Shown: positions 56,208 to 57,315 of the stretch, piece after piece | Layout of the letters: each line of letters opens with the position of its first letter | Numbering within the stretch: the stretch's first letter is position 1 | DNA from: Alphaproteobacteria bacterium | GTDB lineage: Bacteria; Pseudomonadota; Alphaproteobacteria; UBA828 | Length of the DNA stretch: 64,000 nucleotides | Direction: 5' to 3' | NCBI GenBank assembly: GCA_965220745.1 | Contig: CBDCQT010000010.1 | Span: 576,001-640,000, forward strand | Position numbers and translations under genes: made by a program | The notes under the pieces: model-generated | Database searches by the model: none | Told to the model about the DNA's origin: nothing | The model's input: only the letters and a program-made list of their open reading frames with translations

Positions 56208-56341
56208 GCCTTCCCGCGTCGCTACTTATCGTCTAACGCAGCATGCTGACGGCTCCTGAATAACGTGGTTGACACTTTGGGTTGTTTGTCACATTATTAC
56301 TTACAAATGAATTCACATCGTCTCGTTCGAGGAATGGTGCC

Positions 56342-56908
56342 GTGCCGACAATCCGCATATCTGACGAATCGATGCAGCGACTGAAGGCGTGGGCGGAGCC
56401 GCTCGTGGACTCGGCGGACTCGGCCCTTGCGAAGGCGCTGGACGCCGCCGAACGCTATCGTGAGACACACGCCCCAACGGCCACAGCCCCCGTTCCACGA
56501 TCCGGCGATCATGCTCCGGGGCTACCGGAGGAGACCGTTAGAGAGCCCCTCATGGATGTCATCTATGAGCGAGGCGGCAGCGCGAGCGGGCGCGAAGTTT
56601 ATCCGGCCCTGAGAGAGCGCGTGAAACGCTACATGACGCCCGGCGATTTCGATCGAATCAGCTCGGGCGACGACAGATGGAGAAGTACTGTGAAGTCGGC
56701 ACGCGAAGACCTGGTTCAAGACGGATATCTCCGCGACGATTCGCCGCGCGGGGTCTGGGCGTTGTCCGACGCGGGCGTCGCATTGGTCGAGAGCCGTCGC
56801 GTGGCTTCCTCGGGCAGCTTCGTCGATCACCTCCTCGCGTTTCCGGACGTGGGCGACGATTCGGACTTCGATCAGCCGCGCTCGGGCCCGCGGCCGGTGG
56901 ACCTGTGA
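56342..56908 (+). CDS. Mrr N-terminal winged-helix protein with antitoxin-like C-terminal tail
   Basis: GGSA...V, RW....AR..LV..GYL..DSPRGVW.LS..G (Mrr_N pattern); tail SFVDHLLAFPDVGDDSDF; GTGA overlap with the PIN gene. Confidence 0.8.
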   Translation: MPTIRISDESMQRLKAWAEPLVDSADSALAKALDAAERYRETHAPTATAPVPRSGDHAPGLPEETVREPLMDVIYERGGSASGREVYPALRERVKRYMTPGDFDRISSGDDRWRSTVKSAREDLVQDGYLRDDSPRGVWALSDAGVALVESRRVASSGSFVDHLLAFPDVGDDSDFDQPRSGPRPVDL

Positions 56909-57315
56909 GCTATCTCGTCGACACCAATGTGGTGTCCGAGCTGCGCAAGCGGGAGCGCGCCAACCAAGGCGTCGTCACCTGGTTTCGGGAACGCGAGCCG
57001 GAGGAGCTCTATCTCAGCGTCCTGGTAATCGGCGAGCTTCGGCGCGGTGCAGCGCGCGTCCGACGCCACGACCCGGCGTTCGGCGTCGTGCTCGACAGAT
57101 GGGTGGCAGAAATCGGCGAGCGGTTCGGCGACCGTATACTCCCGGTCGATCACGCCATAGCCGAGCGATGGGGGGAAGTCAGCGCGCATCCGACGTTGCC
57201 GGACGTGGACTCTCTCCTCGCCGCGACGGCGCTCGTTCACGACCTCACCGTCGTGACCAGAAACGTGCGACACATCGCACCGTCAGGCGCGCGCTGCTTC
57301 GATCCGTTCGGCTGA
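56905..57315 (+). CDS. vapC: VapC family PIN-domain toxin
   Basis: [41 protein letters not shown]. Confidence 0.92.

What the first reader, a model, noticed from the sequence alone, without database searches (positions are those of the whole stretch)
56208..57315. Chimeric RHH/Mrr_N/antitoxin-tail protein translationally coupled to a VapC RNase: candidate sensor-type defence TA
Seen: a 188-aa protein with three parts: an N-terminal strand-helix-helix (MPTIRISDESMQRLKAWAEPLVDSADSAL, RHH/SeqA-N-like), a central Mrr N-terminal winged helix with no nuclease domain, and a short acidic tail ([30 protein letters not shown]) like the VapC-binding tails of Phd/YefM-type antitoxins. It overlaps vapC by GTGA and follows an AT-rich promoter (TTGACA-N17-CATTAT). 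Known: Mrr_N is the DNA-binding domain of type IV restriction enzymes, and PIN toxins can act as abortive-infection effectors. Inference: the antitoxin may sense foreign or modified DNA and release VapC. The alternative is a recent chance fusion.
Basis: partly seen in the sequence, partly recalled or inferred. Interest (0 to 1): 0.75.

Follow-up and report, generated by a model that had tools for sequence, protein, structure and literature searches.

The report
FitAB-type toxin-antitoxin with swapped DNA-binding module
This is a real, conserved toxin-antitoxin gene pair whose antitoxin joins the toxin-binding tail of a common antitoxin type to an unusual two-domain DNA-binding module from another protein family, and nothing found here shows that it senses foreign DNA.

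Summary
A 188-aa ORF (56342-56908) overlaps a 136-aa PIN gene (56905-57315) by GTGA, downstream of a TTGACA-N17-CATTAT promoter. The protein has three parts: an RHH/SeqA_N-like N-terminus, an Mrr_N winged helix (wH) without a nuclease, and an acidic tail.

The fusion is not a chance event. 110 protein clusters share the architecture. 16 of 16 loci with a complete tail carry the PIN gene directly downstream. The wH is under purifying selection.

The tail is homologous to the tail of FitA-like RHH antitoxins (hhalign 98%), not shown to be Phd/YefM-like. The PIN is closest to FitB. A complex model supports tail-PIN binding (0.81 against 0.03 for the best control).

The N-terminus plus wH comes from a larger tail-less family with no PIN beside it. 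Its operator-like GTNAC-N3-GTNAC boxes at the -10 element came along. FitA-type loci carry a different palindrome instead.

Natural variants that lost the wH keep the tail, the PIN and the boxes. Variants that lost the PIN keep the wH. So the wH looks accessory to neutralisation.

I found no defence context, no PADLOC hit, and no phage or plasmid copies. The sensor idea stays untested speculation. Verdict: a new variant of a known kind, of moderate interest.

The parts
56269..56297 (+). Sigma-70-type promoter, TTGACA-N17-CATTAT
   Evidence: 10 of 12 positions match; 1 site found against 0.1 expected in shuffles. The -35 TTGACAC is invariant in 11 of 11 orthologous upstream regions.
56288..56300 (+). 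Candidate operator: two pentamer boxes 8 bp apart (GTCAC-ATT-ATTAC, second box degenerate) overlapping the -10 element
   Evidence: GTNAC-N3-GTNAC pairs lie at the same place upstream of tailed, wH-less and tail-less family genes. GTNAC counts are 27 against a shuffle mean of 6.1, and 13 against 2.2. They are absent upstream of FitA-type genes. The motif was chosen post hoc. The site is unique in the genome. Binding is inferred, not shown.
56330..56334 (+). Shine-Dalgarno-like AGGAA, 7 nt before the GTG start
   Evidence: Read; conserved as GGGAA or AGGAA.
56342..56470 (+). Antitoxin residues 1-43: strand-helix-helix (RHH/SeqA_N-like) domain, the likely dimerisation and operator-reading module
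   Evidence: AF2 secondary structure. It is the most conserved part, with dN/dS 0-0.17. Profile hits are weak: the SepA-family N-terminus at 29.9 bits; SeqA_N, DUF7557 and VAPB_antitox in relatives; SeqA-N 1xrx is the top PDB hit of the tail-less profile at E 0.024.
56471..56530 (+). Antitoxin residues 44-63: disordered Pro/Ala-rich linker
   Evidence: pLDDT is below 50 at residues 44-60. Length and sequence vary. dN/dS is about 0.3-1.6.
56531..56767 (+). Antitoxin residues 64-142: Mrr_N-type winged helix, no nuclease domain
   Evidence: Pfam Mrr_N. pLDDT is above 90. Fold matches are to generic winged helices, Z 9-10. dN/dS is 0.13-0.40.
56768..56806 (+). Antitoxin residues 143-155: connecting helix after the wH
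   Evidence: Helix 143-156.
56807..56908 (+). Antitoxin residues 156-188 plus stop: FitA-type PIN-binding tail
   Evidence: hhalign against tails of FitA-like antitoxins gives 98.1% probability, E 1.1e-13. The tail co-occurs with the PIN whatever the N-terminal module is. The complex model places residues 159-178 on the PIN.
56905..57315 (+). PIN-domain toxin gene (VapC/FitB-like), 136 aa, GTGA overlap with the antitoxin stop
   Evidence: PIN at 58.2 bits. The closest solved chain is FitB 2h1c, E 4.6e-13 for the single protein and 1.1e-19 for the profile. D6, E44 and D102 are invariant in 21 sequences. Position 120 is N where FitB has D.

Best explanation
This is a chromosomal type II toxin-antitoxin operon of the FitAB/VapBC kind with a chimeric antitoxin.

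Shown by comparison:
- The last ~33 residues of the antitoxin and the PIN toxin belong to the FitA-like/FitB-like module.
- Residues 1-150 (a SeqA_N/RHH-like domain, a linker and an Mrr_N winged helix) belong to a separate, larger family of stand-alone ~150-170-aa proteins that have no toxin next to them.
- The promoter-proximal GTNAC-N3-GTNAC boxes go with that second family and replace the TGCTATCA-type palindrome found at FitA-type loci.

Inferred mechanism:
- The N-terminal domain dimerises and reads the two dyad-symmetric GTNAC boxes that overlap the -10 element. This represses the operon.
- The tail helix and the acidic stretch lie over the PIN active-site face and neutralise the toxin, as FitA does with FitB.
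- PIN dimers probably bridge antitoxin dimers and strengthen repression.
- When the antitoxin is degraded, the PIN RNase is freed.
- The winged helix is an inherited, selectively maintained second DNA-binding domain that is not needed for neutralisation. Its own target is unknown. My best guess is extra DNA contacts that raise or tune DNA affinity.
For: - Family size: 110 clusters match at E<=1e-3. By my reading of the C-termini printed, 72 have a complete tail, 30 have a truncated tail and 8 are fragments or frameshifts.
- PIN linkage: 16 of 16 three-part loci with a complete tail have the PIN directly downstream, overlapping. These are L002-7, L009-10, L023-27 and L029-31. Some are near-identical, and L004 is cut by a contig end.
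- Tail homology: hhalign of A1 against 13 FitA-like antitoxins aligns residues 156-188 with 44-76 at 98.1% probability, E 1.1e-13. The N-termini did not align.
- Tail-sharing small antitoxins: 23 such antitoxins of 71-82 aa were found. 6 of 6 tested are Pfam FitA-like_RHH at 49-64 bits. 22 of 23 have a homologous PIN downstream; L047 ends at a contig end.
- PIN identity: closest to FitB. D6, E44 and D102 are invariant.
- Complex model of the PIN with residues 143-188: score 0.81 in three runs, best of 3 controls 0.03. This mark was reached by 116 of 157 solved complexes and 2 of 215 mismatched pairs. The runs agree in at least 88% of contacts and the partner pLDDT is at least 61. Contacts are tail residues 159-171, 174-176 and 178 with PIN residues next to D6 and E44. 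FitAB is solved, so the pass may reflect likeness to it.
- Tail-less family: 1766 representatives match at E<=1e-3, and most of the top 150 match query residues 1-150 only. Mrr_N is above the cut-off in 8 of 9. 0 of 8 assessable tail-less loci have a PIN; L032 runs off its contig.
- Tree (quick method): all 28 tailed sequences, plus P0132 (degenerate tail) and P0154, form one clade with SH-aLRT 98, nested among the tail-less ones under midpoint rooting.
- Operator boxes: GTNAC counts in the 90 nt upstream are 27 against a shuffle mean of 6.1 in 18 tailed or wH-less loci (0 of 2000 shuffles as high), 13 against 2.2 in 7 tail-less loci (0 of 2000), and 2 against 3.0 in 10 FitA-type loci. The FitA-type loci show TGCTATCA/TGATAGCA palindromes instead.
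- The wH is dispensable for keeping the PIN: P0125, P0127 and L041-43 have the N-terminal domain joined to the tail. All 3 of these loci have a PIN and GTNAC pairs.
- The wH is still functional: its dN/dS is 0.13-0.40. In the PIN-deleted pair L008-L028 it is 0.40 for the wH and 0.21 overall.
Against: - No experiment supports toxicity, neutralisation or DNA binding.
- The fourth PIN acidic residue (D in FitB) is N120 here. It is N in 19 of the 21 sequences of A3 (my count of the rows printed, which itself lists N120 only as at least 90% conserved); FitB has D there. Nuclease activity is therefore assumed.
- The window's own operator is degenerate (GTCAC-ATT-ATTAC). L006, L007 and L027 have no exact GTNAC at all.
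- I picked the box motif after looking at the sequences, and many loci are close kin. The shuffle counts therefore overstate the support.
- The RHH assignment rests on a monomer model with pLDDT 52-69 in that part and on sub-threshold profile hits.
- SeqA-N is an oligomerisation domain, not a DNA reader (recalled). The wH could therefore be the operator reader instead.
- The wH-less variants come from metagenome contigs and their function is untested.
- The tree is the quick one and has no true root.
Confidence: 0.7

Rival explanations
1. Sensor-type defence TA. The Mrr_N winged helix recognises modified or foreign DNA. Binding changes the antitoxin so that the PIN is released or de-repressed, giving abortive infection.
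For: Mrr_N is the DNA-recognition domain of modification-dependent restriction enzymes by its Pfam definition. Prokaryotic winged helices can read 6mA (abstract and passages of PMC11037411). The wH is kept under purifying selection. The architecture mirrors SeqA: a SeqA_N-like domain, a linker and a DNA reader.
Against: There is no PADLOC hit for either protein. The locus sits between argF and a hydantoinase-like amidohydrolase at the same chromosomal site across the genus. The neighbours of other tailed and tail-less loci are housekeeping genes such as leuS, queH, ruvB and guaA. No copies were found in viral contigs, phage records or plasmid records. wH-less variants keep the PIN and PIN-less variants keep the wH. 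The upstream region has no GATC or GANTC site.
Confidence: 0.1
2. The winged helix is the operator-binding domain. The N-terminal SeqA_N-like domain only dimerises or oligomerises the protein, as in SeqA. The GTNAC boxes are read by two wH domains of a dimer.
For: The N-terminus resembles SeqA-N (1xrx is the top hit at E 0.024; SeqA_N at 18.7 bits in P0215). Winged helices of the PadR, MarR and TubR kind are classic operator readers and are the best fold matches.
Against: 3 of 3 wH-less loci (L041-43) still carry GTNAC-N3-GTNAC pairs upstream. The N-terminal strand residues I4, R5, I6 and S7 are invariant or nearly so. An 8-bp spacing of dyad-symmetric boxes fits tandem RHH dimers (recalled from MetJ and Arc).
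Confidence: 0.15
3. A decaying or neutral chance fusion with no function for the middle domain.
For: Decay forms do exist. Alleles with the PIN deleted, the wH deleted, or a frameshift are present: L008, L028, P0053, P0110, P0125 and P0127.
Against: The wH has dN/dS 0.13-0.40, while the linker is at about 1. The architecture is conserved down to 45% identity and across two classes of bacteria. The wH has pLDDT above 90.
Confidence: 0.03

Closest known systems
FitAB of Neisseria gonorrhoeae (RHH antitoxin FitA with PIN toxin FitB; PDB 2h1c, 2h1o, 2bsq)
   Same: The PIN is closest to FitB among solved chains. The antitoxin tail is homologous to tails of Pfam FitA-like_RHH antitoxins. The antitoxin gene lies upstream and overlaps the toxin gene. 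FitA has an N-terminal RHH and a C-terminal helix that binds the PIN, and the complex is a tetramer of heterodimers on the promoter (passages of PMC3326315).
   Different: The FitA RHH (PF22513) is absent. It is replaced by a SeqA_N-like domain plus an Mrr_N winged helix, which makes the antitoxin 188 aa instead of about 78. The upstream repeats are GTNAC boxes, not the TGCTATCA-type palindrome. The fourth acidic residue is N, not D.
Stand-alone 'Mrr N-terminal domain-containing proteins' of ~150-170 aa (uncharacterised)
   Same: They share residues 1-150 at 35-45% identity, the same two domains and the same GTNAC-N3-GTNAC boxes at the -10 element.
   Different: They have no tail and no PIN neighbour: 0 of 8 assessable loci.
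Mrr-type type IV restriction endonucleases
   Same: They share the Mrr_N winged helix.
   Different: This protein has no Mrr_cat nuclease domain. Real Mrr-like ORFs of 291-763 aa in 11 other Pseudomonadota genomes match only the wH part of the profile.
SeqA
   Same: The order of parts is the same: a SeqA_N-like N-terminal domain, a flexible linker and a DNA-binding domain (weak scores).
   Different: The C-terminal DNA reader is Mrr_N, not the SeqA C-domain. The scores are below the curated cut-offs.
T4SS effector SepA family (NCBIfam NF047386)
   Same: Positions 1-46 of the profile match the N-terminus.
   Different: The score is 29.9 bits against a cut-off of 110, and the rest of the 182-position profile does not match. 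This protein is not a member.

Membership tests
Type II TA, VapBC/FitAB kind | Two small co-directional genes, with the antitoxin first and translationally coupled to the toxin | tested here: met
   GTGA overlap at 56905-56908. The same overlap occurs in 16 of 16 loci with a complete tail.
Type II TA, VapBC/FitAB kind | Toxin is a PIN domain with the conserved acidic residues | tested here: inconclusive
   PIN at 58.2 bits against 23.6. D6, E44 and D102 are invariant. The fourth position is N120 where FitB has D.
Type II TA, VapBC/FitAB kind | The antitoxin C-terminus binds and covers the toxin | tested here: met
   This was tested by comparison and modelling only. Tail homology to FitA-like tails is 98.1%. 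The tail and the PIN always occur together. The complex model scores 0.81 against a best control of 0.03, which may reflect likeness to solved FitAB.
Type II TA, VapBC/FitAB kind | Toxicity of the PIN and rescue by the antitoxin | not testable with these tools
   Needs expression assays.
FitA-like_RHH antitoxins (PF22513) | N-terminal FitA-type RHH domain | tested here: not met
   There is no PF22513 hit at E<=1. hhalign aligned only the tails.
Mrr type IV restriction enzymes | Mrr_N winged helix | tested here: met
   29.2 bits against 29.5 on the protein and 30.7 bits in the six-frame search. Relatives score 30-59 bits in 8 of 9.
Mrr type IV restriction enzymes | Mrr_cat PD-(D/E)XK nuclease domain | tested here: not met
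   There is no such hit. The protein ends 46 residues after the wH.
Known anti-phage defence systems (PADLOC-DB 2.0) | Match to a defence-system protein model | tested here: not met
   0 families for both proteins at E<=1. The library dates from 2023.
SeqA | SeqA_N domain | tested here: inconclusive
   Relative P0215 scores 18.7 bits against a cut-off of 23. The tail-less profile against 1xrx gives E 0.024.
SeqA | SeqA C-terminal DNA-binding domain | tested here: not met
   No hit; Mrr_N occupies that place.
T4SS effector SepA family (NF047386) | Whole-protein score over the curated cut-off | tested here: not met
   29.9 bits against 110, covering profile positions 1-46 of 182 only.

The most novel reading that the evidence does not exclude
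The RHH/SeqA_N-like domain plus Mrr_N module could be a SeqA-like reader of DNA methylation state: an oligomerising N-domain, a flexible linker and a methyl-DNA-reading winged helix. Toxin expression or release would then respond to under-methylated or foreign-methylated DNA, from replication, repair or an invading element. That would make the pair a DNA-modification-sensing TA, and the tail-less family a new class of methylation-responsive regulators.
Probability: 0.1. Interest if true: 0.8.

Novelty: new variant of a known kind. Interest (0 to 1): 0.45.

Why it matters
This is a clean natural example of modular antitoxin evolution. The toxin-binding tail and the PIN come from one family (FitAB-like). 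The DNA-binding module and its operator come from another. Natural deletion variants separate the parts: some have lost the wH and others have lost the PIN.

The work also draws attention to a large, uncharacterised family of stand-alone SeqA_N-like plus Mrr_N proteins with an apparent auto-operator. Public records name these only 'hypothetical' or 'Mrr N-terminal domain-containing'.

Two full-text searches found no paper describing an Mrr_N-bearing antitoxin: 'Mrr_N' with 'antitoxin' and 'VapB', 'winged helix', 'antitoxin', 'VapC'. If the winged helix turned out to read DNA modification, the pair would link epigenetic state to an RNase toxin.

Tried and rejected
- PADLOC gave no hit.
- A1 against viral contigs gave none. 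tblastn of the 188-aa protein against plasmid and phage records gave no match at E<=1e-3.
- The tail (residues 145-188) against shorter proteins in the word-indexed database gave only one truncated relative, so that tool could not test tail kinship. The metagenome pattern scan did.
- A tail HMM over the six-frame ORFs of the own genome found no second copy.
- Alignment A2 was too diverse for the search for related loci, so I used A1 instead.
- A2 against 400 other Pseudomonadota genomes found no further two-domain member in those searched, only Mrr-like wH matches.
- The repeat finder with seed 6 saw nothing in 56200-56350. The boxes are too short and degenerate for it.
- Foldseek and VIA-align gave only generic winged-helix matches. 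The best Foldseek E was 2.9e-3 and VIA Z was about 9-10. No Mrr structure stood out, and the N-terminal part was barely tested.
- A1 against PDB sequences gave nothing meaningful.
- No GATC or GANTC site lies in the window's 134-nt upstream region.
- Only 12 exact GTNAC-N3-GTNAC sites occur in the genome against 45 expected from base composition, so there is no sign of a regulon.
- RNA libraries: three metatranscriptome runs hold contigs 90-99% alike over parts of both genes. No record bridges the junction with 31 letters on each side. Bins 56242-56298 have no cover. DNA carry-over cannot be excluded, so this is not evidence of transcription.
- The careful tree did not finish in 300 s, so the quick tree is reported. 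My full-tail and short-tail labels in that call were partly wrong because of a regex error. Only the tailed-versus-tail-less split is used.
- The SepA literature was listed only and not followed up.
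Full report
**What is there.** The interval 56208-57315 begins just after the stop of an ornithine carbamoyltransferase gene (OTCace domains). It holds a 134-nt AT-rich spacer and two overlapping genes on the + strand.
- The first gene runs 56342-56908. It starts at GTG, encodes 188 aa, and has AGGAA 7 nt upstream.
- A longer reading from TTG 56282 is possible on paper. 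However, 24 of 28 aligned homologues start at the MP(T/V)IR position.
- The second gene runs 56905-57315 (GTG start, 136 aa). Its start overlaps the first gene's stop as GTGA.
- The consensus scan finds one promoter, TTGACA-N17-CATTAT at 56269-56297, against 0.1 expected in shuffles. Its -35 TTGACAC is invariant in 11 of 11 orthologous upstream regions.

**The three parts are real.**
- Pfam gives Mrr_N for residues 67-150 at 29.2 bits, just under the 29.5 cut-off. The six-frame genome search gives 30.7 bits. 8 of 9 single-domain relatives score 30-59 bits. There is no nuclease domain.
- An AlphaFold2 model built on 28 homologues (mean pLDDT 72) shows an extended stretch at residues 1-7, helices at 8-18 and 25-42, a disordered linker at 44-60, a confident winged helix at 64-141 (pLDDT above 90), a helix at 143-156 and a short tail helix at 160-166.
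- Fold searches return only generic winged helices such as Hel308 WH, RosR, TubR, PadR and MarR, at Z about 9-10.
- The N-terminal domain gets only sub-threshold profile hits. These are the first 46 positions of the NCBIfam 'SepA family' model (29.9 bits against a cut-off of 110), SeqA_N, DUF7557 and VAPB_antitox in relatives, and SeqA-N (1xrx) as the top, co-linear PDB hit of the tail-less family profile at E 0.024.
- 'RHH/SeqA_N-like' is therefore a fair but not proven label.
- The second protein is a PIN domain (58.2 bits) and is closest to FitB among solved chains.

**The fusion is not a chance event.**
- The word-indexed search finds 110 clusters at E<=1e-3, full-length down to 45% identity.
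- Species-representative genomes give nine further loci, in Alphaproteobacteria/Rhodospirillales MAGs and two Pseudomonadales MAGs.
- In the window's own order, 16 of 20 other genomes of the genus have a match. 0 of 28 genomes of 13 other genera do, with this query.
- In the genus the pair sits at one chromosomal site, argD-argF-[pair]-amidohydrolase. The flanking proteins are 86-99% identical, while the antitoxin ranges from 51 to 97%.
- Pairwise dN/dS (Nei-Gojobori, 11 pairs) is 0-0.17 for the N-terminal domain, about 0.3-1.6 for the linker, 0.13-0.40 for the winged helix and 0.03-0.34 for the tail region. All three folded parts are under purifying selection and only the linker drifts.

**Where the parts come from.** The metagenome scan with the family alignment used two peptide patterns, one from the N-terminus and one from the tail. 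It returned 46 loci of four kinds.
1. Three-part genes with a complete tail. Together with the genome loci these make 16 loci, and 16 of 16 have a homologous PIN gene directly downstream with the same overlap. Some loci are near-identical, and L004 is cut by a contig end.
2. Tail-less genes of about 160-170 aa that match residues 1-145/153. 0 of 8 assessable loci have a PIN (L032 runs off its contig).
3. Genes of about 87-109 aa in which the N-terminal domain is joined straight to the tail, with the winged helix gone (L041-43). 3 of 3 have the PIN. Cluster representatives P0125 and P0127 are of this kind and still carry the last strands of the winged helix, so they arose by internal deletion.
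4. 23 small antitoxins (71-82 aa from the likely start) that share only the tail.
   - 6 of 6 tested are Pfam FitA-like_RHH at 49-64 bits.
   - The best PDB match is FitA.
   - 22 of 23 have a homologous PIN downstream; L047 ends at the contig end.

Profile-profile comparison aligns residues 156-188 of the three-part family with residues 44-76 of these FitA-like antitoxins at 98.1% probability, E 1.1e-13 and 48% identity. The N-termini do not align. The tail therefore travels with the PIN whatever the DNA-binding module is. It is a FitA-type tail, and I found no Phd/YefM-type bearer of it.

**The tail-less family.**
- The exhaustive representative search gives 1766 proteins at E<=1e-3 (364 at 1e-10). 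Most of the best 150 are 150-200-aa proteins that match query residues 1-150 only. Some hits are multi-Mrr_N repeat proteins.
- These tail-less proteins align end to end. Atlas clusters name them 'Mrr N-terminal domain-containing protein', and one cluster carries SeqA_N in 16% of its members.
- NCBI calls a member of the tailed family 'hypothetical protein'.
- In a quick maximum-likelihood tree of 28 tailed and 44 tail-less sequences, with tails cut off, all tailed ones fall in one clade with SH-aLRT 98. The clade also holds P0132, which has a degenerate tail, and P0154. It is nested among tail-less sequences under midpoint rooting.
- This fits a single capture of a FitA-type tail plus PIN by a member of the tail-less family. 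Without an outgroup the direction is an inference.

**The operator went with the DNA-binding module.**
- Upstream of tail-less genes, right at or after the -10 element, lie pairs of dyad-symmetric pentamers 8 bp apart: GT(A/T)AC-N3-GT(A/T)AC in 6 of 7 loci.
- The same pairs occur upstream of tailed genes (L008, L026, L028, L031) and of all three wH-less genes (L041-43).
- The window's clade has a degenerate version, GTCAC-ATT-ATTAC at 56288-56300, which overlaps the CATTAT -10 element.
- GTNAC counts in the 90 nt upstream:

| Locus group | Loci | Observed | Shuffle mean | Shuffles as high |
|---|---|---|---|---|
| Tailed or wH-less | 18 | 27 | 6.1 | 0 of 2000 |
| Tail-less | 7 | 13 | 2.2 | 0 of 2000 |
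| FitA-type | 10 | 2 | 3.0 | 1620 of 2000 |

- The FitA-type loci carry TGCTATCA/TGATAGCA-type palindromes instead.
- Caveats: I chose the motif after seeing the tailed set, so the tail-less set is the only semi-independent check. Many loci are kin. L006, L007 and L027 have no exact box.
- Because the wH-less genes keep the boxes, the N-terminal domain is the more likely reader. An 8-bp repeat of symmetric boxes is what tandem RHH dimers use (recalled from MetJ and Arc).
- The exact pair is rare in the genome, 12 sites against 45 expected, and the window's own site is unique. I see no regulon.

**Does the tail bind the PIN?**
- The complex tool, given the PIN alignment and residues 143-188 of the antitoxin alignment, scored 0.81 in each of three runs against 0.03 for the best of 3 controls. 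This mark was reached by 116 of 157 solved complexes and 2 of 215 mismatched pairs.
- The runs agree in at least 88% of contacts, and the partner pLDDT is at least 61.
- Tail residues 159-171, 174-176 and 178 touch PIN residues 5, 7-8, 10-16, 24-35, 44-48 and 51-77. These sit next to the invariant D6 and E44.
- FitAB is solved, and in it a C-terminal helix of FitA binds the PIN (passages of PMC3326315). The pass may therefore show likeness to FitAB rather than independent support.
- One caveat on the toxin: the fourth acidic residue, D in FitB, is N120 here. By my count of the printed rows it is N in 19 of the 21 PINs of alignment A3, including partners of canonical FitA-like antitoxins.

**What the winged helix does.** This is the open point.
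- Against a sensor-for-defence role:
  - neither protein hits a PADLOC model;
  - the neighbours are housekeeping genes in the window (TPP enzyme, argD, argF, amidohydrolase; an IS transposase lies 1.7 kb downstream) and at the other loci examined (leuS, PIF1-WYL helicase, queH, ruvB, guaA);
  - there are no copies in viral contigs, phage records or plasmid records;
  - the wH can be lost while the PIN is kept;
  - the PIN can be lost while the wH is kept.
- On PIN loss: 30 of 110 clusters have a tail cut 2-7 residues after the DF motif (my reading). In the two loci of that kind that I could inspect (L008, L028), only the last 23-24 codons of the PIN remain, at the same chromosomal site. Their antitoxin genes still show dN/dS of 0.21 overall.
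- In favour of some DNA-related role of its own: the domain is well folded, under selection, and shared with the tail-less family.
- I therefore commit to 'accessory DNA-binding domain inherited from the parent family, not needed for neutralisation'. I give about 10% to a modification-sensing role.

**Literature.** Full-text searches for 'Mrr_N' with 'antitoxin' (5 papers, none on this; passages of PMC11090510 read) and for 'VapB', 'winged helix', 'antitoxin', 'VapC' (8 papers, listings only) found no description of this architecture. PMC11037411 (abstract and passages) shows that prokaryotic winged helices can sense 6mA in restriction enzymes. It mentions no toxin-antitoxin fusion. I did not look at supplementary files.

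**Expression.** Three metatranscriptome runs (coral and sponge metagenomes by their records) hold contigs 90-99% alike over parts of both genes. I do not count this as evidence.

**Verdict.** The TA reading is well supported by comparison and modelling, though not by experiment. The chance-fusion alternative is refuted. The defence-sensor inference has no support so far. The pair is a new variant of the FitAB/VapBC kind, made by swapping the antitoxin's DNA-binding module and operator. The tail-less parent family is the part most worth further study.

Noticed in passing
window 59064-60263 (+): An IS-type DDE transposase (DDE_5 at 186 bits, DDE_Tnp_1) lies about 1.7 kb downstream of the PIN gene. 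It had no tblastn match in the related loci.
   Followed up: partly
L008:3001-3660 and L028:1642-2252: At the same argF/amidohydrolase site, some species carry an allele in which the PIN is deleted down to its last 23-24 codons and the antitoxin tail is cut short. 30 of 110 clusters have such short tails. The orphan antitoxin is still under purifying selection.
   Followed up: partly
L044:2231-3800: Here only a 32-34-aa tail ORF precedes the PIN. Upstream lies what looks by eye like a MazE/MazF-type pair, and downstream a Phd-like ORF, so this may be a small TA cluster. I did not check it with Pfam.
   Followed up: no
L046, L049, L051, L054, L061, L063, L064, L068 (90 nt upstream of the antitoxin genes): FitA-type antitoxin genes carry TGCTATCA/TGATAGCA-type palindromes just upstream. 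This matches the half-site I recall for the gonococcal fitAB operator.
   Followed up: partly
P0116, P0124, P0130: Proteins of 555-717 aa have 3-5 tandem Mrr_N winged helices and no other confident domain.
   Followed up: no
G000, whole genome: There are 21 PIN-domain matches over the Pfam cut-off in the 4.8-Mb genome but only this one Mrr_N match.
   Followed up: no
L035:1135-1347: A HicB-like antitoxin gene (27.4 bits against a cut-off of 27) lies 55 nt downstream of a tail-less family gene.
   Followed up: no
L009:4068-5615 and L010:4063-5613: In the two Pseudomonadales MAGs the pair is followed by a PIF1-like helicase with a C-terminal WYL domain.
   Followed up: no
window 56342-56480; NCBIfam NF047386: The first ~46 positions of the NCBIfam model named 'T4SS effector SepA family' match the N-terminal domain of this family in 11 of 14 relatives tested, always far below the cut-off. 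That family may share this RHH-like domain.
   Followed up: no
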